Shown piece after piece: positions 25,781 to 50,992 of a DNA stretch of 64,000 bases (the first letter of the stretch is position 1; every line of letters starts with the position of its first letter). The notes beneath the pieces are model-generated. The model searched no databases. It had not been told where the DNA came from and was given only the letters and a program-made list of their open reading frames with translations. The DNA comes from a virus. The stretch covers positions 32,001 through 96,000 of the IMG/VR virus record IMGVR_UViG_3300009448_000011, one strand, 5' to 3'. The translations under genes and the position numbers were made by a program.

Positions 25781-25810
25781 TTGACATACTAAGTTATGGT
25801 ATGTTATACT
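25781..25810 (+). promoter_or_regulatory. Sigma70-type promoter of cassette copy 1
   Basis: TTGACA-N18-TATACT with TG extended -10. Confidence 0.75.
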
Positions 25811-25834: not shown

Positions 25835-26419
25835 ATGAATTTAGAAACTTGTCAAAACTTAAGCTTGATAATAGAAAAAGACCAAACAATTGAAGTAATT
25901 GAAATTTGGGCAAAAGTATTATATATAAGAAGAAGCAAAGGAAGAAATTCATTTTATTCGAAGAAAGGAATAACAAAAGAAACAGAAGGAATATTTTGTA
26001 ATAACTTAAAAGTTTCAGAAAATTATAAAAGCCTTTTTAAAAAATACCACCCCGATTTAAACAAAGGAAAAGAAAGTTATGTTGACATTTCAAAAAACAT
26101 TAATAGATGGAAAAACTTATTACTTGAGAGTGGACAAAGAGAGTTTGATCAACAATTATATACAGAGCTTATTGAGTTTTGTGGACCACTCACATCCATT
26201 TTCACTATTGGAACCAGAGCAAGTTTTATCGCAAAACAAACGTGCGGATCTATCAACATCCCTCAATTTAGTTCTGAACAGGAATTTGTTGAGTGGAAAG
26301 CAGCGCCAAAGCAAGTTGCTTCCAGGCAAGCGTTCCTTGATAGCCAACTTACTAGAGCTCAAATCATCAAAAAGTACGGTAAATCCTACTATGATTATGA
26401 AAGAGATCTTCCTTTTTAA
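25835..26419 (+). CDS. Cassette copy 1 ORF A (J-domain-like HPD protein)
   Basis: Start moved to the ATG at 25835 by alignment with the other copies; YKSLFKKYHPDLNKG; ends ERDLPF. Confidence 0.75.
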   Translation: MNLETCQNLSLIIEKDQTIEVIEIWAKVLYIRRSKGRNSFYSKKGITKETEGIFCNNLKVSENYKSLFKKYHPDLNKGKESYVDISKNINRWKNLLLESGQREFDQQLYTELIEFCGPLTSIFTIGTRASFIAKQTCGSINIPQFSSEQEFVEWKAAPKQVASRQAFLDSQLTRAQIIKKYGKSYYDYERDLPF

Positions 26420-27422: not shown

Positions 27423-28993
27423 TTTTTGTTATTTTGATTTACCTAAAATAGCAGAATGCCCCCATCAGAACGGTACTCCGTTTGGTGGCGGGATGAATGC
27501 GAGTGAGGCGACGATTGCCTGTCCTCCTTCCGAGATCTACCGATTGTCGGGATTGTCGGACAGGCATAAGGAGACGAACAAATTCATTGCTTATTCAATG
27601 TTTTATCTGAGTTTTTCTGGATAAAATTATGCTATCATAGTTTCATGATAGTTAGAGAAGCCAAGCTAAAATACGGTACAGCAGAGCAATATTCTGCCAT
27701 TGATAAAGCCATCCGAACAGCACAGTTCATTCGGAACAAAGCCGTTCGCTATTGGATGGACAATCAAGGTACGAGTAAAGCCGATCTGTACAGTATCTGC
27801 AAAGACTTGGCTAAAGAGTTTGACTTTGCTAAAAAGCTTAACTCCGCTGCTCGTCAGGCTAGTGCTGAACGTGCTTGGGTTGCTATCTCTAGCTTCTACA
27901 CCCGATGCAAAAAGCGGCTCACTCCAGTTGGGTCTCCCAACCATGGAAGTAAGACAAAACAAGGCGTAGGCAAGAAAGGTTTTCCAAAGTTTAAGAAACA
28001 TTGTCGTTCTGTTGAGTATAAGGTTTCAGGATGGAAACTATCGAAAGATTGCAAATCGATCGCATTCACTGATGGTTTTGAGATTGGAACATTATCGATA
28101 TTTTGCAACAATGAAACTCAAGAAGACTTGCATAGGCTGAAAATTAATCGTGTGCGGATCGTGCGGAGAGCAGACGGGTATTATGCCCAATTCTGTTTTG
28201 ATGCAGATCGTAAAGAGCAAGGGGAATATTCAGGCAATGTTGTCGGATTGGATTTAGGGTTGAAGTTTTTCACCAAAGACCAAAACGATAATGCTGTAAT
28301 ATATCCACAGTTCTTGAGAAAGGCCCAGATGCAACTCAAGAAAACTCAACGTCGATTAAGCAAGAAATTTGTGAAGGGTGCCAAACCCCAATCAAACAAC
28401 TACCACAAGGCGCAAAAACAACTAGGAAGAATTCATCTCAAAATTCAACGCCAGCGAAAAGATTGGGCGATAAAAGCCGCCCGAAACGTAGTGATATCTA
28501 ACGATGTCGTGGTGTATGAAAATTTGAAGATTGCGAACATGGTCAAAAATCATCATTTGGCTAAGTCAATTTCCGATGCTGGTTGGTATCAATACACTCA
28601 ATGGCTGGACTACTATGGCAAGATTTGGGATAAAGCAGTTGTGGCAGTATCGCCAAACTATACGTCTCAAGATTGCTCTAATTGCGGTCATCGAGTGAAA
28701 AAGTCTCTTAGTACCAGAACGCACTCATGCCCCAACTGCAAAATTGAAATTTGTCGCGATACGAATGCGGCTTTGAATATCTTGCACAAGGGATTGAACA
28801 TTCTTGGTGTTGAGTGGGACAAAAACAGTACTTCTGGGCAAGAAGGATCTGCCTCTGAGAATGAGGGAAAGCGCGGGGAGAGATGTACCTCTACAGTCGA
28901 TGAGTAATTAAAGACTGCAAGTAATTCTCTGTGAACCGCGAATAAGAATCCCCCGCTATATCGGTACTTCGATTAGCGGCGGGAGTATGTCAA
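27423..28993 (+). mobile_element. IS200/IS605-family (IS1341-like, tnpB only) element
   Basis: Higher GC; related subterminal hairpins gaatgcccccatcagaacggtactccgtttggtggcggg and gaatcccccgctatatcggtacttcgattagcggcggg; right end ...gtatgTCAA; left boundary approximate (TTGAC at 27418 or TTGAT at 27434). Confidence 0.8.
27645..28907 (+). CDS. tnpB: TnpB RNA-guided endonuclease
   Basis: RuvC GLDLG, VVYENL, RDTNAA; zinc ribbon CSNC...CPNC. Confidence 0.95.
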   Translation: MIVREAKLKYGTAEQYSAIDKAIRTAQFIRNKAVRYWMDNQGTSKADLYSICKDLAKEFDFAKKLNSAARQASAERAWVAISSFYTRCKKRLTPVGSPNHGSKTKQGVGKKGFPKFKKHCRSVEYKVSGWKLSKDCKSIAFTDGFEIGTLSIFCNNETQEDLHRLKINRVRIVRRADGYYAQFCFDADRKEQGEYSGNVVGLDLGLKFFTKDQNDNAVIYPQFLRKAQMQLKKTQRRLSKKFVKGAKPQSNNYHKAQKQLGRIHLKIQRQRKDWAIKAARNVVISNDVVVYENLKIANMVKNHHLAKSISDAGWYQYTQWLDYYGKIWDKAVVAVSPNYTSQDCSNCGHRVKKSLSTRTHSCPNCKIEICRDTNAALNILHKGLNILGVEWDKNSTSGQEGSASENEGKRGERCTSTVDE

Positions 28994-29587: not shown

Positions 29588-32500
29588 TCATTTAGCGGCC
29601 CAACTAGTACCCAATTTACATTCTGCTTTAGAAGGAAAATCAGGCACTAATTTATGTAATAATTCATCCATTGCTTTTTTCATTCCTAATTCTTGTGCAG
29701 CAGCATATTCATAAGAAATATCTTGAAATTTATATTCAGGAATATAAACTTCCCCATCTTTTCTTACATTTACTACTTCACCTTGTCCAGGGATATAAGT
29801 AATACATTCATCATGAACTAAGCCTACGATATAGCCTGGAGAAGAATGTTGTTTATACTTAGTATTAAGCTGAGTAAAAAACTGATCGATATAATGTGCG
29901 GCGCGTTTTGTCATAATACTAGAAAGGCCTTGTATAATGGTATTACAACCTTTACGCATAGTAGCGCCATCATTTTCTATTCCGTGAGCATTACCTTCGC
30001 CAACGAAATAGCGTCTATTTGTTATAGGACATTGTACCCATTTTTGATATCTAGCCAAAGAACTAGTATTATCAATATAGACTTGCAATTCTGGAAATAA
30101 ATTAAAATAGTTTTTAAGAAGTTGTTCAGCAACCTTAATATCTATTTGAAGAGCGGTAGAAATTCTATTAGCACTTCCACCATAAATTACCTTAAACCCT
30201 AAATTTTCATCTAGGTTTGGACTATACCTTTTAATGTAATTATTTGACATACATTAAAACACCGTGTTATAATTAGTATAACAAAGAAACATTTTAGATA
30301 ATGGACATACAAACAGCGGCGAATTTACAAGAATTAATAGAACAAGATCCTTTAATAGAATTAATCGAAATATGGGATAAAGTTTTATACATAAGAAAAG
30401 TAAAAGGCCGAGGAAGGTTTCATACTAAAAAAAATATTACTTTGTTAAAAAGTGGAATATACATCAATACAAAATATATACTCCAAGAATACAAAAGACT
30501 TCAAAAAAAATATCACCCTGATTTAAACAAAGGAAAAAAAAATTATGTTGAAATTTCAAAAAGCATTAATCAATGGAAAGACTTATTATTTGAATGTGAC
30601 GAAAGAGAACTCAATAGAACAGTATATCAGTTACTTATTACAACATGTGGACCGCTCACATCCATTTTCAGCATTGGAAAATCAGCAGACTTTATTTGGG
30701 GGCAAGAGGCCGGATTTCTCCACATCCCTAGATTTAATTCTGAACAGGAATTCAAGGAATGGAAAATTCCCTTTAGGAATTGGGCGGAAAAACTCGATGA
30801 TTGCCGATTGCCTAGAAGTAAAAGGAAGTTCTCAGATGTTGAGCACTACGGAGTTAATGAAAGAGATCTTCCTTTTTGATGCAGCAGAAACTATTGTTCC
30901 TACTTATGATGTTTCTATGTCTGATTTTCAATCTCAATATTTTCCATTGGGGAAAGAAAGCAAGAATTATTTCAGAAGTTATGTGCAGGAAGCACTTAAT
31001 AGAGGCATCAAAGTGAAATCATTTACTTTTTGGTTTGCGGGCCCTCTAGTGTCTATTGAAGCCATCAAATTTTCTATTTATTGGAATCGCGTGATCAAAC
31101 AAATAGGTGGAATTCAAGTAGAAATCAAAGTTTTGTCTTTGGAACAATTAATTAATTACATCATTTCCAATATTCCAACAAAAAAATGGTATGTATTAAA
31201 TCAACATCCTTCTGTTTGTATGAGTAGAGCGCAGGTTGAAGCTCTAATAGAAGCTCAACTAGCCATTTTAGTATAATCTTTTAATATCTAATTATCTTTA
31301 AGTCGCCTTGTACATTAATGTATTTAGGCGTTTTTTATTATGTATTCTTAAAAGTCTCTGAACCATTTTATAAACTTTCATTTATAGCTGGCTGCTGATT
31401 GACATATAGTATTTTTTAAACTACTTAGTGTTCCAGCAATTGAGTGTTTTTTACTTCACCATAATTTACAATTTAGTGAAGCCGCAGACTTTACCACGGT
31501 CTCTTCTTGTCCATCCATTCATATCTTTTTTAGCTTCTTTAATAACATTCCATTTAGGAACAGTAGCTAATTCAGGGTACATTCCAATAGCCGAAACTAC
31601 ATGAAGATCCCCGTCAGGATTAGGATATGTTTCTTTTGTATGTGGATTAATAAGAAAGGGATTATGCACTTCGGCATCGAAAAACGCATTAATCATTCTC
31701 TCTATTTTTGCTATACAAGCAATAGCTCTTACTTCTTGCAATATAGTTTTATTCTATACTGGCACTACTCTTCACCATCTCTATTAAGTACAGGTGTTTT
31801 ACGTCAGTGCTCTACTCTTGCCCAATTAATATAATAGAATAATAGTTCTAATTAATTTGCTAGATCGGGATTAGTTTACTATCACTTTCCCCGAATTGGT
31901 AAAATATTTTTTATACTATTTCTAATATAAACGACCCTTTTTTATTGTATTTATTTGTTTGACATTCAGCCATATAAGAGATACAATAAAAAAAAGACAA
32001 AAAACAAATAAGGTATGGATGCTCAAACTTGTAGAAACCTACAAACATTAATTGATAAAGATAATAATATTGAACTCATAGAAATATGGGCCAAGGTACT
32101 TTATCTAAGAATGAAAAAAGGAAAAAACAAGTTTTGCAGTAAAAAAGGAATAACTAATTTAAGCTCAGGAATTTATTTAAACTTAACTAACTTTAAAAAT
32201 GAATACACAAAATTGCAACGAAAATATCACCCAGACAAAAATGCAAAACATTTTGAAATTTCAAAAGGTATTAATCAATGGAAAGCATTTATATTTGAAT
32301 GTGACAAACGAGAACTTAATAGAACAGAACTTAATACATTACTTGAATCATGTCCCCCCAACACATCCTTATTCTCTCTTAGAGAACCAGCAAGTTATTT
32401 ACAACAACAAGAGACCGGACTTTTCAACCACCTTGACGACATTGCCAGGCACTATTGGGCCACTGTTACGCCTAAGCAAAGAGCTGAGGCAGAAGCTAGG

Positions 32501-33147
32501 GAAGAAGAATGGCTTGCTCGTCGATGTGGTAGAAACAAAGATGGAAGTAAATACGTCGACCCTTATGAAGGAACTTGTCCCTTTTAAAGAAGATGCACAA
32601 CAATTTGTTGATTCATCTTTTAGAAAGGAACAATTTACTTTTAATGCAGAACGCGTTGTCAATTATAAATGTTACATAAGCAATTATGTGAAAGCTGTTC
32701 AACAAAAAAAAGGTAAAGTAAAACAAATTACTTTTGCTTTTGTAGCTCCAAAAATAACAGTAGATGCATATGAATTGGCGTGGATTTTAACACATAGTCC
32801 AATTTACAATAATATTGGTGGCGTTAAAATCATAGTAGAATTATATACATTAGAAGCTTTTATCGAAAAACTGATTAATATAATCCCAGCCAATAAATGG
32901 TTCATTAAAAGTTCAATTCCTTTTAATTGTGTAAATGGGAGAGATGTAGATCTTCTAGTTAAAGAAAATAGAGCTATTATTATTTAATTTATTTATTTTT
33001 TATCTTTAGTAATAAACTCAGTATATAGGTGTATACTGAGTTTCAATTTATATTTAGTTAAGCCGAGTAATCACTAATACCCACACACATACCTTTAGGC
33101 GCCGCACCTAAAGCTTTTCTTACCGTTGTTGTAATTTCATATGACAT
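29588..33147 (-). CDS. polA: Family-A DNA polymerase, C-terminal (palm/fingers) half; 3 exons 33147-33061, 31738-31475, 30190-29588 (317 aa)
   Basis: Splicing restores motif A DYSA|QEVR and motif B RDRGKVCGFT|VIYGG; motif C VHDE; NTIIQG. Confidence 0.9.
30244..30273 (+). promoter_or_regulatory. Sigma70-type promoter of cassette copy 2
   Basis: TTGACA-N18-TATAAT with TG extension, overlapping intron P3/P8 on the opposite strand. Confidence 0.8.
30301..30879 (+). CDS. Cassette copy 2 ORF A (J-domain-like)
   Basis: YKRLQKKYHPDLNKG; ends ERDLPF. Confidence 0.75.
   Translation: MDIQTAANLQELIEQDPLIELIEIWDKVLYIRKVKGRGRFHTKKNITLLKSGIYINTKYILQEYKRLQKKYHPDLNKGKKNYVEISKSINQWKDLLFECDERELNRTVYQLLITTCGPLTSIFSIGKSADFIWGQEAGFLHIPRFNSEQEFKEWKIPFRNWAEKLDDCRLPRSKRKFSDVEHYGVNERDLPF
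30545..31276 (+). CDS. Cassette copy 2 ORF B (PD-(D/E)xK endonuclease)
   Basis: KRPDFST...CLEVK. Confidence 0.75.
   Translation: MLKFQKALINGKTYYLNVTKENSIEQYISYLLQHVDRSHPFSALENQQTLFGGKRPDFSTSLDLILNRNSRNGKFPLGIGRKNSMIADCLEVKGSSQMLSTTELMKEIFLFDAAETIVPTYDVSMSDFQSQYFPLGKESKNYFRSYVQEALNRGIKVKSFTFWFAGPLVSIEAIKFSIYWNRVIKQIGGIQVEIKVLSLEQLINYIISNIPTKKWYVLNQHPSVCMSRAQVEALIEAQLAILV
31304..31336 (+). terminator. Intrinsic terminator after copy 2
   Basis: CGCCT...AGGCG followed by TTTTTT. Confidence 0.7.
31959..31987 (+). promoter_or_regulatory. Sigma70-type promoter of cassette copy 3
   Basis: TTGACA-N17-TACAAT. Confidence 0.75.
32015..32587 (+). CDS. Cassette copy 3 ORF A (J-domain-like)
   Basis: YTKLQRKYHPDKN; ends EGTCPF. 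Confidence 0.75.
   Translation: MDAQTCRNLQTLIDKDNNIELIEIWAKVLYLRMKKGKNKFCSKKGITNLSSGIYLNLTNFKNEYTKLQRKYHPDKNAKHFEISKGINQWKAFIFECDKRELNRTELNTLLESCPPNTSLFSLREPASYLQQQETGLFNHLDDIARHYWATVTPKQRAEAEAREEEWLARRCGRNKDGSKYVDPYEGTCPF
32199..32987 (+). CDS. Cassette copy 3 ORF B (PD-(D/E)xK endonuclease)
   Basis: KRPDFST...VVETK. Confidence 0.75.
   Translation: MNTQNCNENITQTKMQNILKFQKVLINGKHLYLNVTNENLIEQNLIHYLNHVPPTHPYSLLENQQVIYNNKRPDFSTTLTTLPGTIGPLLRLSKELRQKLGKKNGLLVDVVETKMEVNTSTLMKELVPFKEDAQQFVDSSFRKEQFTFNAERVVNYKCYISNYVKAVQQKKGKVKQITFAFVAPKITVDAYELAWILTHSPIYNNIGGVKIIVELYTLEAFIEKLINIIPANKWFIKSSIPFNCVNGRDVDLLVKENRAIII
33014..33043 (+). terminator. Hairpin after copy 3 (terminator candidate)
   Basis: aaactcagtata/tatactgagttt 12-bp inverted repeat. 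Confidence 0.55.
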
Positions 33148-33209: not shown

Positions 33210-33563
33210 TTAAACAATATTATGTTTCAACAAAACAAGAATGATTTGTTTAATAATATCGCCATGACAATCATTAGGTTTGCACCAACAAGCAAGTTTA
33301 AAATCTACCCCTTTTTTTTCTAATTGAGCTAAGCGAATCAATTCATCATAAACAGAGCCTTTTTTCAAAGAATACATTTGAAGAATCCAGGCCTTATAGA
33401 GCTGTAGACTTTCTGCAAGAGTTCTATTATGTCTAACTGCATAAGGATTATTTAAAGGGCTAGCTTTTAAATTGTAATAAGCATTTTTACGGCCAATGTA
33501 GATAATATCTTCGCCAACAAATCCGTCTTTTTTCCCATTGATAATGTGCATAGAGTTGTTCAA
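33210..33563 (-). CDS. DUF4326-like protein
   Basis: IYIGR...SPLNNPY...LACWCKPNDCHGDII. Confidence 0.8.
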   Translation of the reverse strand: MNNSMHIINGKKDGFVGEDIIYIGRKNAYYNLKASPLNNPYAVRHNRTLAESLQLYKAWILQMYSLKKGSVYDELIRLAQLEKKGVDFKLACWCKPNDCHGDIIKQIILVLLKHNIV

Positions 33564-33570
33564 TTAAATA

Positions 33571-34860
33571 TCAAAATTGATGTTGATCAATAGAAATAAC
33601 AGCAAGAGTAGAAGAAACTTGTTGTAAATTAGCAGAGCCACTAGAACTCATGCGACCTGTACTAGAACCTATAGAAGAAAAACCGACATGTACGTTATTA
33701 GTAGTACTATTAATAATAGAGTTATACTTCAAACATTCAGACCAAAGTTTACTATATTTTTTATAACGTAACAAATTTTTAATTAAATTAATATGACTAT
33801 ATTTAGAAATCAAATAATTCTCATCAAATAAAGGTTCTTTTTCTTCATCAAGGGCTTCTTGTTTTAGTAGATCAAGATATAATTTTATTTCATCTGCTTG
33901 CAAGCTAGATAAAGAAGCGCCGCCTAATTTAGTCAAATAATCATTAATAAAAGAAACTAAGCCCTTATTATTATTAAGTAAAGTTTTGACTTTATCAGGA
34001 ATAACATACTTAAGTTCCCAATGACCTTGAGCATTAAGATCAGTATCAGTATAGATAGTAAAACCTAATTCATGTACTAAATAAGATCTATGAAGATTAG
34101 TTTGTTCTTCGGCATAAGAAGTAATCTTAGCTAATAGAGAAGTATCGAGACACATGCCGTAATATTCCATTTTTGCACAAATAACAGTAGCTTGCTGATC
34201 TGATTCGTATGCAAATTGTTGATGAAGAAGATCAAGTTGAGTTTTAAATAAATAATAACCTTCAATTAATATAGAATTAATAGAAGAAAGTTTAGGAGCG
34301 CCAACATCTAAAGCGGCATAACCTAATTGGCTAGTAGTTAAAGGTCGTTCACCCCAAGAACTAGTAGCTTCACTTTTATCGAGATGGATATCAAAATAAT
34401 CCCTTGCTAAATCTTTAAGACCATGGCCTCTAAATATAGAAGCTTTCATTCCTGTAGTAATGGCCAAACTTTTCATTAAAGTCAAAGAACAAACAGTATT
34501 AACGGGCCAGGATTTAAACTCGTTATAAAATTGTTTTAAATCAAATTGACTATAGTGAAGTATTTTTAATATATTTTCATTAAGCAATACTTTTGTATTA
34601 AATAAAGATTTAGCAGAAGAACTCAATAATATAAAATCTAAAATATAAGGAATAGAATGATTTATACTATTTAATTGAACTAAAGATATTTTAGAACTAT
34701 GAGGATCCAAAGCACTAGGATTTACTTTAGATAAATCAATCATAGTTTCAGTATCCAGTGCAATTTCCTTACTTTCTACACAAAAATCAATTATTGCCTC
34801 TATATCTTTATCTTCTGTTACATAATAAATATCAATTTCCGCTGTTTCTATTAATTTCAT
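33571..34860 (-). CDS. polA: Family-A DNA polymerase, N-terminal half (3'-5' exonuclease and thumb)
   Basis: ALDTET, HYSQFDL, YAALDV, MEYYGM.LD, TGRMSS..ANLQQV, then stop. Confidence 0.9.
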   Translation of the reverse strand: MKLIETAEIDIYYVTEDKDIEAIIDFCVESKEIALDTETMIDLSKVNPSALDPHSSKISLVQLNSINHSIPYILDFILLSSSAKSLFNTKVLLNENILKILHYSQFDLKQFYNEFKSWPVNTVCSLTLMKSLAITTGMKASIFRGHGLKDLARDYFDIHLDKSEATSSWGERPLTTSQLGYAALDVGAPKLSSINSILIEGYYLFKTQLDLLHQQFAYESDQQATVICAKMEYYGMCLDTSLLAKITSYAEEQTNLHRSYLVHELGFTIYTDTDLNAQGHWELKYVIPDKVKTLLNNNKGLVSFINDYLTKLGGASLSSLQADEIKLYLDLLKQEALDEEKEPLFDENYLISKYSHINLIKNLLRYKKYSKLWSECLKYNSIINSTTNNVHVGFSSIGSSTGRMSSSGSANLQQVSSTLAVISIDQHQF

Positions 34861-47972: not shown

Positions 47973-48372
47973 TTCCTAATAATTCTGTTAAAGCAAACTG
48001 AGCATCAAATAATTGAATAGTGTTAGGTCTACTAAACTCAAATAAATATTGTTGAAATACGCCTAAAGATTTTTCATAATATTTTTCAACAATAGCATTT
48101 ACAATAAGTTTTTCATCAAATAAAAAAGTAATTTCTTGGTATTGAGCTGCGGTGCCTAAATAGACAGTAAATCTAATAGTAGGATCTACTACATCAACTC
48201 CCTGACTATTTTGATAAGTAGGAAAAAATATCAAAACAGCAAATTTTACTATATCTTCGTGTGTAAAATTACGAGAAGATAGAATTTCATACCCTCGATT
48301 AGTAAAACTATAGTAAGCCAATAATTCTGCTATTACTTTTAATTTGTTTTTATATTCTAAGTTTTTTGTCAC
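47959..48372 (-). CDS. Hypothetical protein in the MoxR-vWA operon
   Basis: 137 aa ORF. Confidence 0.5.
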   Translation of the reverse strand: MTKNLEYKNKLKVIAELLAYYSFTNRGYEILSSRNFTHEDIVKFAVLIFFPTYQNSQGVDVVDPTIRFTVYLGTAAQYQEITFLFDEKLIVNAIVEKYYEKSLGVFQQYLFEFSRPNTIQLFDAQFALTELLGIDYD

Positions 48373-48402
48373 GGGGAGTTTCTCCTTATATAATTTTAAA
48401 AA

Positions 48403-50992
48403 TTAAACAGATATTAAATCACTAAAAGCTTGCATATGTTCTTTGCGCATTGCTTTATATGCCTCAGACTTACCAATTTTGTAGGGTAGTTTTTTATTAT
48501 CTATTTTTTGTGCTTTACTAAATAGAGTAATCACACTTGTCACTAAAATTTCTTTACGAGGTAAATTATCTTCAATACTTCCTAATACATTAAATACATA
48601 ACATGCCGCTATAAATTCTTCTTCTGTTTTACAATACGACGGTAATGAATAACTTAATCCATATAAACCAGTTATTTTAGTAGGAAGAATATTTTTAATT
48701 AAGCGATCATCTTGGAGGACACCTAGACGAATATATTCAGACATAGGGGCAAGGCTAGCTAATTCTTCAATAACAAAAAAGAATTCATGAGCAGTAGCGG
48801 CGCCTAAAAGACCTGGTAAAATAATTTTTAATTGTTGTTCATCAGTAATTTTCTCCATAATATTGGAACATTTTTCCCATGAACGGCTAGAAGGATTAAT
48901 TTTATCATCATTATCTGCGACTGATTTAAAACCTTCGTCAAGAAATTCAGGACGAGCTCTTAAAAAAGCTTTAATAGAAGGAATAATAGGGCGGCCGTTT
49001 TCTGCGCGATGGGCTTCCCATTTTAACCAAGCATTTACAGAAGTCATTACGTCAAAATGAATAAAACGATCTGAGATAGCACTAGATAACTCATAGGCTA
49101 TAGCACCATCTTCTACTCTATTTCCTGCTGCAATAATCATTACATTATCAGGAACTTTATATTTATCAATTTTTCTATCTAATATTAATTCGTACATTAA
49201 TATACCTTTAATTTTCATTAAAGAACGGAATACATTTTAATCTTTACTATATTTATATAGTATTAAGACTTGGACACTCTAGGTAAAATTATAGTCTGTT
49301 TAACTTAAGACATCATTTACTACTCTCTACATTATTATTAAACATTACTTTAATAATTAACACGGGATTACCTTATAGTTTCCTACTTAGGTTTCCCCGT
49401 TAGCCTAATCTCTATTTGTTCTTTTTTGATTAAACCCTATTGACTTATTAAAACCAATACATTATAATATATTTAAATACACACACATTTACAAATAAGA
49501 AATTCAAGTGGACATACAAAGTTGTAAAAATCTTCAAGCATTAATTGATAAAGACAATAATATTGAACTCATAGAAATATGGGCTAATATATTGTATTTA
49601 AGAATGCGAAAAGGAAAAAACAAATTTTGTAGTAAAAAAAGAATAACTAATTTAAAAGAAGGTGTTTATTTAAATATCTATACTTTTTCTAAAAATGAAT
49701 ACAAACAATTACAGCAAAAATATCACCCTGACACCAGCTCAAAATATTTACACATTTCAAAAAGTCTTAATCAATGGAAAGATTTATTATCTAGATGTGA
49801 CTACAGAGTCCAAAATAGAAGCATATATCTTGACATTGCTGCAACATATTCCAACAACCCATCCATATTCTCTATTGAAAAATCAATTAGAATATTCAGT
49901 ATGGCAAAAGAGGCCCGACTTTTCGACGGACTACTCGAGGATACCGCAGAGTGGGCAGAAGGATGTGATGAAGCCTGGCTCGCTCAACAAAGAGCTGAGA
50001 GCCAATCTAGGTGGAAAGAATGGTCTAACTGGCAACGTGGTCGAGATAAAGAAGGAAATAAAATTAGAGACACTTATGACGGAACTCTTCCTTTTTAATA
50101 CAGAAGAAGAAGTATTTCTTGCTCCTCTCGGTAAAACTCACGATCAATTTCTAAAAGAAAATCCTATAGAAACTTCTTCATCTAAAATGTATATACTTGC
50201 CACTAAACTTCATGCACAAAAATTAGGATTTAAACTAAAAAGATTAAATATGACTTTTGTGGCGCCTCTTGTTTCTAACAAAGCATTACAATATGAACAA
50301 TATCATAACAAAGCTATTAAAAATATAGGAGGAATTGCAGTAGATTTAAAAGTATTTACCTTAGAACAATTCATTAATGAATTATTTACTTTAATTCCCG
50401 ACAGTAAATGGTACATAAAAGATAATCATATTCCTTTTATCGCCTTGTCAAAATCTAAAGTAGAAATATTACAAGAAAATAATTTAGCCGTTATAATGTA
50501 ATCATATTCATTTTTATTTAAATCTCTCTTATTGTGTTATTGCTTTAAGAGAGATTTTTATTTGGTACGCAATAGTTTGCCCAGTTTTACTTATATATTT
50601 CTATATAAGGTGCCTACGAATATTTAAGCACTTGCTTGTAAACGCGGTTCAGCCGCACTTAATTCATCTAGAAAAATAATACAACCTTCTTTACCCCAAC
50701 TAGCAATCATTTCTTCTGTTGGTAAAAATTCAGGTAAATAATAAATAGTTTTTTTACTTTCTTGATGTAGATAAGGAAGTCCTGTTAAATCAGTACTATC
50801 CATTCTAGTAAGTCTTAAATCAATTAGCCCCCAATTTAATTCTGTAGCTATTTGTCTTACAATATCAGATTTACCACAACCAGGTTGTCCATGTATATAT
50901 ACAGCATTTTTACGTAAGTCTGTATCTTTTGCCATTGTTAAAATACAATTTTTAATTAAATCAGGCGTAGTGGGAATAGTATTAATTGTCAT
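48403..50992 (-). CDS. MoxR-type AAA+ ATPase; 2 exons 50992-50627 and 49194-48403 (385 aa)
   Basis: GQPGCGKS, DLTGLP, FLDELSAA, QASA|YELILDR after splicing, AAGN, DRF. Confidence 0.9.
49440..49468 (+). promoter_or_regulatory. Sigma70-type promoter of cassette copy 4
   Basis: TTGACT-N17-TATAAT. Confidence 0.75.
49508..50098 (+). CDS. Cassette copy 4 ORF A (J-domain-like)
   Basis: YKQLQQKYHPD; ends DGTLPF; GTG start. Confidence 0.75.
   Translation: MDIQSCKNLQALIDKDNNIELIEIWANILYLRMRKGKNKFCSKKRITNLKEGVYLNIYTFSKNEYKQLQQKYHPDTSSKYLHISKSLNQWKDLLSRCDYRVQNRSIYLDIAATYSNNPSIFSIEKSIRIFSMAKEARLFDGLLEDTAEWAEGCDEAWLAQQRAESQSRWKEWSNWQRGRDKEGNKIRDTYDGTLPF
49695..50501 (+). CDS. Cassette copy 4 ORF B (PD-(D/E)xK endonuclease)
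   Basis: KRPDFST...VVEIK. Confidence 0.75.
   Translation: MNTNNYSKNITLTPAQNIYTFQKVLINGKIYYLDVTTESKIEAYILTLLQHIPTTHPYSLLKNQLEYSVWQKRPDFSTDYSRIPQSGQKDVMKPGSLNKELRANLGGKNGLTGNVVEIKKEIKLETLMTELFLFNTEEEVFLAPLGKTHDQFLKENPIETSSSKMYILATKLHAQKLGFKLKRLNMTFVAPLVSNKALQYEQYHNKAIKNIGGIAVDLKVFTLEQFINELFTLIPDSKWYIKDNHIPFIALSKSKVEILQENNLAVIM
50520..50563 (+). terminator. Hairpin and T-tract after copy 4
   Basis: aaatctctctta/taagagagattt followed by ttattt. Confidence 0.6.

What the first reader, a model, noticed from the sequence alone, without database searches (positions are those of the whole stretch)
30191..30300. Antisense promoter written into the ribozyme core
Seen: copy 2's TTGACA-N18-TG-TATAAT promoter (30244-30273) is the reverse complement of intron P8 and the P3 3' strand, so the same bases serve ribozyme folding and antisense transcription. 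The other intronic copies also have + strand promoters and downstream hairpins inside their introns. Established: phage intron endonuclease genes are normally on the intron's own strand. Inference: antisense RNA or polymerase collision could throttle splicing and so regulate polA and MoxR expression.
Basis: partly seen in the sequence, partly recalled or inferred. Interest (0 to 1): 0.7.

Follow-up and report, generated by a model that had tools for sequence, protein, structure and literature searches.

The report
Backwards promoter interleaved with intron core
A self-splicing intron in a phage DNA polymerase gene carries a backwards-facing gene cassette, and the cassette's near-perfect bacterial promoter sits on top of two helices of the intron's catalytic fold; this is a tidy piece of genome packing, but nothing yet shows that it regulates splicing.

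Summary
TTGACA-N18-TGt-TATAAT lies at 30244-30273 on the + strand, 27 nt before ORF A (30301). It is the only 12/12 match in the 64-kb window.

The surrounding 1,284 nt (31474..30191, - strand) are a real group I intron in a Ma-LMM01 gp178-like polymerase gene. The evidence:
- The intron has P1 with U.G, a 7-bp P10, the P/Q/R/S elements, P3, P7, P8, P9 and a terminal G.
- Rfam gives a partial hit (E 7.6e-5).
- Intact homologues read GFTVIYGG across the junction.
- Contigs of relatives join 30190 directly to 31475.

The promoter does overlie P3' and P8, but the two are interleaved rather than shared. The -35 is in the P8 loop and the -10/TG is in the joiner before P3'. The helices sit in the 18-nt spacer, the one part of the promoter that is sequence-free (30% identity among the four copies, against 83-92% for the hexamers).

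All four cassette copies have such a promoter and a downstream terminator-like hairpin. In the other two introns the promoter lies outside the core.

The most likely function is autonomous expression of a mobile two-gene cassette. Throttling of splicing is untested, because no RNA data were found.

Earlier notes in this scan report antisense self-promoted genes in phage group I introns on other DNA. The papers I read describe them only for nuclear rDNA introns.

The parts
30244..30249 (+). -35 hexamer TTGACA. Its reverse complement UGUCAA lies in the loop of intron helix P8.
30250..30267 (+). 18-nt promoter spacer. It holds the complement of the P8 5' strand (30250-30258) and of P3' (30259-30263), then the TG of the extended -10 (30265-30266).
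30268..30273 (+). -10 hexamer TATAAT, preceded by TGt (extended -10). On the intron RNA it lies just 5' of P3', partly in the arm of a 7-bp local hairpin (30283-30277 / 30271-30265).
30301..30879 (+). ORF A (192 aa). J-domain-like, with a KKYHPD motif. First gene of the cassette, 27 nt after the -10.
30545..31276 (+). ORF B (243 aa) in the +1 frame. It has RPD...E-x-K motifs and is a candidate nuclease; no family match was found.
31304..31336 (+). Terminator-like hairpin of the cassette (CGCCU...AGGCG) followed by U6. It ends 16 nt from the P7 5' strand.
   Evidence: -10.4 kcal/mol, z -2.7
30191..31474 (-). Group I intron 2 of the gp178-like polymerase gene (1,284 nt). The 5' exon ends at U31475, the terminal G is 30191 and exon 3 starts at 30190.
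31454..31481 (-). P1 is exon 31481-31475 paired with the guide sequence 31460-31454 (7 bp, U31475.G31460). The P10 guide 31467-31461 pairs with exon 3 at 30190-30184 (7 bp).
31353..31450 (-). Core 5' half: P3 5' strand (31450/47-31443), P4-P5-P6 with the P and Q elements, J6/7 and the R element with the P7 5' strand (G31358, 31356-31353).
   Evidence: Rfam Intron_gpI 31438..31353, 25.6 bits, E 7.6e-5
30230..30263 (-). P3' (30263-30259) and the P8 hairpin (30258-30250 / 30238-30230, loop 30249-30239).
   Evidence: 10-nt perfect inverted repeat
30191..30229 (-). J8/7 and the P7 3' strand (S element, 30229-19), P9 (30215-09 / 30204-198) and the 3' tail ending in G30191.
31959..31987 (+). Promoter of cassette copy 3 (TTGACA-N17-TACAAT). 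It lies inside intron 1 (33060..31739), in the P1 loop, 22 nt from the guide sequence GGUCG (31936-32). It does not lie in the P3-P9 core.
49440..49468 (+). Promoter of cassette copy 4 (TTGACT-N17-TATAAT) inside the intron of the AAA/MoxR-like gene, about 40 nt 5' (on the RNA) of P4. It lies outside the Rfam-matched core (49400-49324).
25781..25810 (+). Promoter of cassette copy 1 (TTGACA-N18-TGt-TATACT). It has the same design as copy 2.

Best explanation
The motif at 30244-30273 is the cassette's own sigma-70-type promoter. The cassette is a self-contained + strand transcription unit: a promoter, two overlapping ORFs (a J-domain-like ORF A and a candidate nuclease ORF B) and an intrinsic-terminator-like hairpin. 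It sits backwards in the P7-to-P3' region of a group I intron that interrupts motif B of a phage family A DNA polymerase gene.

The promoter is laid over the 3' half of the ribozyme so that the two codes barely compete. The -35 is in the P8 loop. The 18-nt spacer, which is sequence-free for the promoter, carries the P8 5' strand and P3'. The extended -10 lies in the joiner just before P3'.

Its function is to express the mobile cassette from host RNA polymerase independently of polA transcription and translation.

The antisense orientation is probably what lets a unit with its own terminator live inside an essential gene. In the sense orientation the terminator would cut the polA transcript and ribosomes would run through the ribozyme. 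This last step is inference.

Interference between the two convergent transcripts is a likely side effect, not a demonstrated function.
For: - Only five sites in 64 kb match the consensus at 11/12 or better. Four of them lie 24-39 nt upstream of the four ORF A starts, and this one is 12/12 with TG.
- The hexamers are kept at 92% and 83% identity among copies, while the spacer (30%) and flanks (40-47%) have drifted to near-random.
- All four copies end in a stable hairpin followed by a U-rich tract (z -2.7 to -5.2).
- The intron is real. Rfam gives partial hits on the - strand (E 7.6e-5; for S/P9). P1, P10, P3, P7, P8 and P9 all pair canonically. The unconstrained fold of the intron without the cassette recovers P1, P3, P4, P5, P6, P8 and P9.
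- Uninterrupted homologues read RGKICGFTVIYGGSANRIS, exactly the predicted ligation.
- Contigs of relatives in two runs join 30190 to 31475, skipping exactly 1,284 nt.
- Ten IMG/VR introns with the same P/Q elements and an insert between R and S all carry a sense ORF; one of them, L103, also has an antisense open frame.
- T4 intron endonuclease genes are known to have their own promoters inside the intron (PMC2988022).
Against: - There is no transcript evidence of any kind. No RNA run holds this DNA, and the host and its sigma factor specificity are unknown.
- No Shine-Dalgarno sequence is evident before ORF A.
- The nuclease identity of ORF B rests on short motifs only. Pfam, PHROGs and PDB profile searches were blank and the AlphaFold model was poor.
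- The helix assignments are from one sequence. There is no covariation support, because close relatives could not be fetched.
- The unidirectional-terminator argument for the antisense orientation is inference.
Confidence: 0.68

Rival explanations
1. One reading: the overlap is a selected regulatory device. Firing of the antisense promoter throttles intron splicing or polA transcription through one of three routes: polymerase collision, an RNA duplex about 1 kb long between the cassette mRNA and the intron insert that keeps P7 and P3' apart, or RNase III cleavage. Polymerase (and MoxR) output would then be tuned by cassette expression.
For: - Convergent transcription units are certain from the layout.
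- Copy 2 has the strongest promoter in the window (12/12 plus TG), and it sits in the polymerase gene.
- The cassette mRNA would be fully complementary to the roughly 1.06-kb insert that separates P7 from P3'.
- Antisense interference has been raised as a concern for antisense endonuclease genes in nuclear rDNA introns (PMC9548176).
Against: - There are no expression data.
- The predicted transcript (about 30280-31336) does not cover P3'/P8 or P7, so it cannot pair with the core unless the terminator is read through.
- In introns 1 and 3 the promoter lies outside the core. In copy 1 the same promoter design stands outside any intron. The design therefore belongs to the cassette, not to a ribozyme switch.
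- The promoter's specific bases avoid the paired ribozyme positions, which is what selection against interference would produce.
Confidence: 0.12
2. The promoter-like motif is not used. It is a by-product of an AU-rich P8 hairpin in 29% G+C DNA, and the cassette is expressed otherwise or not at all.
For: - The total number of sites at 11/12 or better in the window (5) equals the random expectation (5.5).
- There is no transcript evidence.
Against: - Four of the five sites sit at the same place relative to the four ORF A starts.
- The hexamers are conserved while their surroundings are randomised.
- A 6/6 TTGACA at the right spacing from a TGnTATAAT has a chance of about 1e-3.
- Related introns have short G+C-rich P8 hairpins (4-6 bp, 4-5-nt loops). 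The long AU-rich P8 with an 11-nt loop is therefore special to this intron.
Confidence: 0.08
3. The promoter works, but the P3'/P8 assignment is wrong or the intron is a decayed, non-splicing relic. In that case no functional ribozyme element is overlapped.
For: - Rfam scores are below the gathering threshold (25.6 and 12.0 bits against 50). The whole-window scans gave nothing.
- No covariation data exist.
- P7 has only 5 pairs.
Against: - GGUGU(U) at 30263-30259 is the only complement to the P3 5' strand between P7 and the S element. P8 must lie directly before J8/7, where a perfect 10-nt inverted repeat is found.
- All core elements, the 7-bp P1 and 7-bp P10 are intact.
- All three exons keep open frames that match homologues at 60-68% identity. 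This argues for a gene that is still spliced.
Confidence: 0.08

Closest known systems
[quoted passage not shown]
   Same: A self-splicing intron in a phage DNA-metabolism gene. The endonuclease gene lies in a peripheral part of the ribozyme and is expressed from its own promoter inside the intron, embedded in the host gene's transcription unit (PMC2988022).
   Different: - In T4 the gene and its promoter are on the intron's own strand, the promoters are phage middle or late types, and I-TevI represses its promoter through an operator that mimics the homing site.
- Here the unit is antisense, uses a host-type -35/-10 promoter and has its own terminator. No homing-site-like operator was found.
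Nuclear rDNA group I introns with antisense His-Cys box endonuclease genes (Didymium iridis Dir.S956-2, D. squamulosum Dsq.L2066)
   Same: The endonuclease gene lies on the strand opposite to the ribozyme and is transcribed from an internal promoter. Antisense interference with the host transcript has been discussed (PMC9548176).
   Different: - Those cases are eukaryotic. They use a Pol II promoter, polyadenylation and spliceosomal introns, the insert is in P9/P9.2, and Pol I and Pol II transcription are proposed to be spatially separated.
- Here everything happens in one bacterial cytoplasm. The insert is between P7 and P3', and the promoter is laid over P3'/P8.
Cyanophage Pf-WMP3 DNA polymerase group IA2 intron with I-PfoP3I, and the SPO1/SP82/Bastille polymerase introns
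   Same: A group I intron in a phage family A DNA polymerase gene. In Pf-WMP3 the ORF overlaps core elements (P6a, P6, P7, P7.1 and P7.2), so dual use of ribozyme sequence has a precedent (PMC3428280).
   Different: In those introns a sense HNH ORF overlaps the core as coding sequence. Here a promoter on the other strand overlaps it, and the cassette proteins belong to another, unnamed family.
Free-standing homing endonuclease genes of T4-like phages (seg, mob) and their invasion of introns
   Same: A mobile endonuclease cassette that can stand between genes (copy 1) or inside introns (copies 2-4). The review notes that an invading cassette with a promoter of opposite orientation could create antisense transcripts (PMC2988022).
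   Different: [quoted passage not shown] Here all four copies carry a near-consensus promoter and a terminator.

Membership tests
Group I intron | P1 helix between the 5' exon and an internal guide sequence, with a U.G pair at the 5' splice site | tested here: met
   7 bp, 31481-31475 with 31460-31454, ending in U31475.G31460.
Group I intron | Terminal G, and P10 pairing of the guide sequence with the 3' exon | tested here: met
   G30191 is the last intron base. The 7-bp P10 pairs 31467-31461 with 30190-30184.
Group I intron | Conserved core (P4-P6 domain, P3-P7 pseudoknot, P8, J8/7, P9) recognised by the Rfam covariance model RF00028 | tested here: inconclusive
   Only partial hits below the 50-bit gathering score: 25.6 bits, E 7.6e-5 for P4-P6-R, and 12 bits, E 0.57 for J8/7-P7'-P9. 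Nothing came up in whole-window scans, because the core is split by about 1.1 kb. By hand and by minimum-energy fold all helices are present.
Group I intron | Removal restores the host reading frame at a conserved site | tested here: met
   Ligation gives RRDRGKVCGFT|VIYGGSANRIS. Intact homologues read RGKICGFTVIYGGSANRIS. A joint 30190->31475 that skips 1,284 nt is seen in contigs of relatives in two runs.
Group I intron | Self-splicing activity | not testable with these tools
   Needs an in vitro transcription and splicing assay or RNA-seq. No RNA run holds this DNA.
Sigma-70-type bacterial promoter | -35 TTGACA and -10 TATAAT at 17+/-1 nt, optionally with TGn (extended -10) | tested here: met
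   12/12 with an 18-nt spacer and TGt.
Sigma-70-type bacterial promoter | Placed upstream of a gene, and conserved where the surroundings are not | tested here: met
   The site is 27 nt before ORF A, with the same arrangement at all four copies. Hexamers are 92% and 83% identical against 30-47% for the spacer and flanks.
Sigma-70-type bacterial promoter | A mapped transcription start | not testable with these tools
   No RNA data.
Homing endonuclease gene (PD-(D/E)xK type) | Recognisable nuclease domain | tested here: inconclusive
   The R-P-D and E-x-K motifs are conserved in the four copies. There was no Pfam, PHROGs or PDB-profile match. The AlphaFold model has pLDDT 52.5. The best structural Z is 5.3, with restriction-endonuclease-like chains only at Z 3-4.3.
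Homing endonuclease gene (PD-(D/E)xK type) | Presence/absence polymorphism of the element at a conserved host site | tested here: met
   An intron-less joint is seen in relatives. Homologous polymerases occur with and without interruptions at motifs A and B. The record holds four diverged copies.
I-TevI-type autorepression | An operator overlapping the promoter that resembles the homing site | tested here: not met
   The best 20-nt match between the exon junction and the promoter region was 12/20 (intron 2) and 11/20 (intron 1). These were matched or beaten by 160/200 and 197/200 shuffles.
Intrinsic (Rho-independent) terminator | A stable G+C-containing hairpin followed by a U tract on the transcribed strand only | tested here: met
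   On the + strand the hairpin 31304-31330 is followed by U6. On the - strand the same hairpin is followed by ACUUAAAG, with no U tract.

The most novel reading that the evidence does not exclude
The backwards cassette is a selected switch and not only a passenger. When its host-type promoter fires, converging polymerases and the roughly 1-kb duplex between cassette mRNA and the intron insert hold P7 and P3' apart or draw RNase III. This blocks splicing of the polymerase (and MoxR-like) pre-mRNAs. Each genome copy would then either express the mobile cassette or make replication proteins, and the promoter's placement over P3'/P8 couples the two states.
Probability: 0.12. Interest if true: 0.75.

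Novelty: new variant of a known kind. Interest (0 to 1): 0.45.

Why it matters
In the papers I read, phage and bacterial group I introns carry their endonuclease gene on the intron's own strand. A 2014 review of bacterial group I introns does not use the words antisense, orientation or promoter at all.

Here a full transcription unit (promoter, two genes, terminator) runs backwards through a ribozyme. Its promoter is fitted between ribozyme helices so precisely that the promoter's free spacer carries the helices and the ribozyme's free loop carries the -35. This gives a concrete example of two unrelated sequence codes packed onto the two strands of 30 bp.

It also offers a simple test system for whether convergent transcription affects self-splicing. 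And it bears on genome annotation. Standard RNA-family scans miss such split cores: the whole-window Rfam scan found nothing. Gene callers report the exons as separate proteins: exon 3 is on record as a 220-aa protein whose first 20 residues are intron sequence.

Tried and rejected
- Rfam on the whole window at gathering threshold, and on 14 kb at E<=10, gave no group I hit. Only searches of 150-320 nt gave partial hits. Intron 1 gave none even then.
- No RNA holder was listed for this DNA. Only contigs of runs of unknown kind could be laid, so neither a start site nor splicing in RNA could be checked.
- Close relatives, wanted for covariation and promoter conservation, could not be fetched. 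IMG/VR scans with ORF B, with the ORF A alignment and with exon 3 found nothing. So did the JGI metagenome scan, the GTDB genome scan and blastn against GenBank phages.
The contigs of ORF A homologues P0002-P0004 and of the polymerase homologues therefore could not be read.
- IMG/VR introns that share the P/Q elements are not otherwise alike in sequence.
- A homing-site-like operator at the promoter (the I-TevI model) scored no better than shuffles. No inverted repeat is shared by the four promoters.
- ORF B identity: Pfam, PHROGs and the PDB profile search were blank. The model was poor and the fold search had no clear match.
- Alternatives to an intron that I considered and dropped:
  - Separate polypeptides. 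The split is inside motif B, and exon 1 is only 29 aa.
  - A split intein. The reading frames at the junctions are far too short.
  - A group II intron. There is no GUGYG...AY and the size is wrong.
  - A transposon with a target duplication. The GF duplication at the junction is explained by the intron's 3' end reading GFK by chance. My first guess of a GF|KVIYGG junction was wrong; homologues and P1/P10 give GFT|VIYGG.
- The exact splice sites and the P3/P8 of intron 3 (AAA/MoxR-like gene) could not be settled.
Full report
Setting. The window is bases 32001-96000 of a 105,687-nt IMG/VR virus record with 29% G+C. The DNA came from a groundwater metagenome. The polymerase genes on the - strand are most like those of Microcystis phage Ma-LMM01, where family A polymerase is already divided into an exonuclease gene (gp180) and a polymerase gene (gp178). 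The gp180 homologue is intact at 33571-34860.

The gp178 homologue is in three pieces:
- exon 1, 33147-33061 (MSYEITT...ISDYSA);
- exon 2, 31738-31475 (QEVR...GKVCGFT);
- exon 3, 30190-29588 (VIYGGSA...).

Between the pieces lie two of four diverged copies (about 60-85% identity in their best-aligned blocks) of a + strand unit with two overlapping reading frames. A third copy splits an AAA/MoxR-like gene.

The observation. On the + strand, TTGACA is at 30244-30249, an 18-nt spacer follows, TG is at 30265-30266 and TATAAT is at 30268-30273. ORF A starts at 30301.
- I scanned the whole window on both strands. Only five sites reach 11/12 matches. Four of them lie 24-39 nt upstream of the four ORF A starts, and this is the only 12/12.
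- The total count equals the random expectation of 5.5, so the genome is not enriched in such sites. Their placement is what is non-random.
- Among the four copies the -35 and -10 hexamers are 92% and 83% identical pairwise. The spacer is 30% identical, the 20 nt on either side 40-47%, and the first 150 nt of ORF A 67%. Random expectation at this base composition is about 29%. The hexamers are therefore held by selection.
- All four copies end in a stable hairpin followed by a U-rich tract. In copy 2 the hairpin is 31304-31330, followed by U6.

Is there an intron? The whole-window Rfam scans were blank. On 231 nt alone, the group I model matched the - strand at 31438-31353 (25.6 bits, E 7.6e-5) over P4-P6, J6/7 and the R element. 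On 151 nt it aligned J8/7, P7' and P9 (AAGGUAUAGUCC...CCUAG...UUAGG) with high posterior probability, although the score was weak.

Reading the - strand gives the following elements:
- P1 is 31481-31475 paired with 31460-31454, with U31475.G31460 at the splice site.
- The adjacent guide bases 31467-31461 pair with the first seven bases of exon 3 (P10).
- P3 is 31450/47-31443 with 30263-30256/59.
- P4 is 31438-33 with 31398-93.
- P7 is G31358 plus 31356-53, paired with 30223-19, with a bulged A.
- P8 is 30258-50 with 30238-30.
- P9 follows, and the intron ends in G30191.

All listed pairs are canonical. An unconstrained minimum-energy fold of the intron with the cassette cut out returns P1, P3, P4, P5, P6, P8 and P9 on its own. 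That fold has z -2.9 against dinucleotide shuffles, and P8 alone has z -3.6. P7 cannot appear in such a fold because it forms a pseudoknot with P3.

Two independent lines fix the boundaries:
- Uninterrupted homologues at 60-68% identity read ...DYSAQEVR... and ...RGKICGFTVIYGGSANRIS... across the two junctions. These are exactly the predicted ligation products.
- Contigs of relatives in two public runs join 30190 directly to 31475, skipping 1,284 nt (one contig has 88 nt on its shorter side). The kind of run is not on record. This is either an intron-less allele or spliced RNA, and both fit.

Another contig, about 90% identical, keeps the intron and the cassette. The intron is therefore real, precisely bounded and optional.

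How promoter and ribozyme overlap. The cassette lies between the P7 5' strand (31353) and P3' (30263). The terminator's U tract ends 16 nt from P7. At the other end the promoter runs into the ribozyme:
- The -35 is the reverse complement of six of the eleven loop bases of P8.
- Spacer positions 1-9 are the P8 5' strand.
- Spacer positions 10-14 (up to 16 in the longest reading) are P3'.
- The TG and the -10 lie in the stretch just 5' of P3'. They partly fall in the arm of a 7-bp local hairpin (30283-77 / 30271-65), which may stand in for the small hairpin that related introns have there.

The phrase 'the same bases serve both' does not. The promoter's sequence-specific bases fall where the ribozyme is free (a peripheral loop and a joiner), and the ribozyme's paired bases fall where the promoter is free (the spacer, which one search shows has drifted to random among copies).

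P8 here is unusually long and AU-rich, with 9-10 bp and an 11-nt loop. IMG/VR introns with the same P, Q, R and S elements have 4-6-bp G+C-rich P8 hairpins with 4-5-nt loops. This suggests that P8 was reshaped to hold the -35. That step is inference.

The other copies.
- In intron 1 (33060..31739) the unit lies in the P1 loop. The -35 (31959-64) is 22 nt from the guide sequence GGUCG (31936-32). The P3-P9 core lies further 3'.
- In the AAA-gene intron the promoter (49440-68) is about 40 nt 5' of P4 and outside the Rfam-matched core at 49400-49324. I could not settle that intron's P3/P8 or its exact splice sites.
- Copy 1 has the same TTGACA-N18-TGt-TATA(C)T design.

Overlap with the core is therefore peculiar to copy 2. 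What the copies share is an autonomous, backwards transcription unit.

Is antisense unusual? I took 118 IMG/VR introns that share the P4/Q sequence. Ten of them have an insert of 0.6-0.9 kb between R and S. All ten carry a sense ORF, and one of them, L103, also has an antisense open frame.

In the literature I could search, antisense endonuclease genes with internal promoters are described for nuclear rDNA group I introns of myxomycetes (PMC9548176). T4 intron endonucleases have their own promoters, but on the sense strand (PMC2988022). A 2014 review of bacterial group I introns does not mention antisense, orientation or promoters.

Earlier notes of this scan report backwards, self-promoted genes in phage group I introns in many other genomes. 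I did not check those.

Mechanism. The reading I favour (0.68) is that this is simply the cassette's promoter, read by host RNA polymerase, which makes the cassette independent of polA expression.

A unit that ends in its own intrinsic terminator could not sit in the sense orientation inside an essential gene without truncating that gene's transcript. On the - strand the same hairpin has no U tract after it. That would explain why all three intron-borne copies are backwards. This is inference.

Converging polymerases must meet, and a duplex over the roughly 1.06-kb insert would hold P7 and P3' far apart or invite RNase III. But nothing here shows it. The predicted transcript does not reach the core at either end, and the fact that the promoter's specific bases avoid the paired ribozyme positions looks more like avoidance of conflict than use of it.

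An I-TevI-like operator was sought and not found. The nuclease nature of ORF B remains a motif-level guess.

Verdict. This is a new variant of a known kind: an intron-borne mobile gene with its own promoter, here antisense and interleaved with P3'/P8. It is a neat, testable arrangement of moderate interest.

Noticed in passing
window 27470-28939: A TnpB (IS605 OrfB / Cas12f-like) element on the + strand. A contig in run X3 joins 27469 to 28940, skipping 1,470 nt, which looks like the empty site in a relative. The element has 10-20 times the depth of its surroundings in four other runs, so it is abundant in other genomes of those samples.
   Followed up: partly
window 30248-30250 (- strand AUG in the P8 loop): An AUG inside the P8 loop opens a frame that runs into exon 3. 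Gene callers therefore record exon 3 as a 220-aa protein (P0008) whose first 20 residues (MSNNYIKRYSPNLDENLGFK) are intron sequence. The GFK at its end mimics the true GFT junction and misled my first splice-site guess.
   Followed up: yes
window 49233-50627 (intron in the AAA/MoxR-like gene): The splice sites are not settled. The U.G pair in P1 points to a 5' splice site after U50627, but no in-frame terminal G then exists. A site after U50626 with terminal G49233 gives ...LQASALFRSLM..., which aligns better with MoxR proteins but puts a U-A pair at the splice site. P3 and P8 are also ambiguous.
   Followed up: partly
window 31935-31996: In intron 1 a 16-bp hairpin (31996-31981 with 31950-31935) encloses the -35 of copy 3's promoter and has the -10 in one arm. 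Its other arm includes the first G residues of the guide sequence, so it could compete with P1.
   Followed up: no
window 29585 / 32937 and 30553 / 32160: Contigs of relatives show 'goes back' joints (32937->29585 and 32160->30553). These suggest that in relatives a copy-3-like cassette lies directly downstream of the polymerase gene, and that copies 2 and 3 have recombined.
   Followed up: no
window 30868-30879, 26408-26419 and 50087-50098: ORF A ends in a conserved ...(D/T)LPF-stop, written CTTCCTTTTT(G/A)A, in three copies and in homologues P0002 and P0004. ORF B continues in the +1 frame through the same bases. Whether this is two overlapping genes or a +1 shift at UUU-stop was not examined here.
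   Followed up: no
window 33210-33563: A DUF4326 gene sits between the exonuclease gene and exon 1 of the polymerase gene, where Ma-LMM01 has a 51-aa ORF (gp179).
   Followed up: no
proteins P0009-P0039: Homologues of the gp178-like polymerase come in lengths of about 320, 275, 215 and 125-145 aa. This fits presence or absence of interruptions at motif A, at motif B and at one or more further sites in different relatives. P0022 starts with an intron-derived ...KGIVQ..., the S element read in another frame, which points to a related intron at the same site.
   Followed up: partly
window 48366-48394: The fifth near-consensus promoter-like site (TTGTCA-N17-TATAAT, + strand) has no + strand ORF behind it. 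It overlaps a small hairpin at the 3' end of the AAA-gene exon.
   Followed up: no
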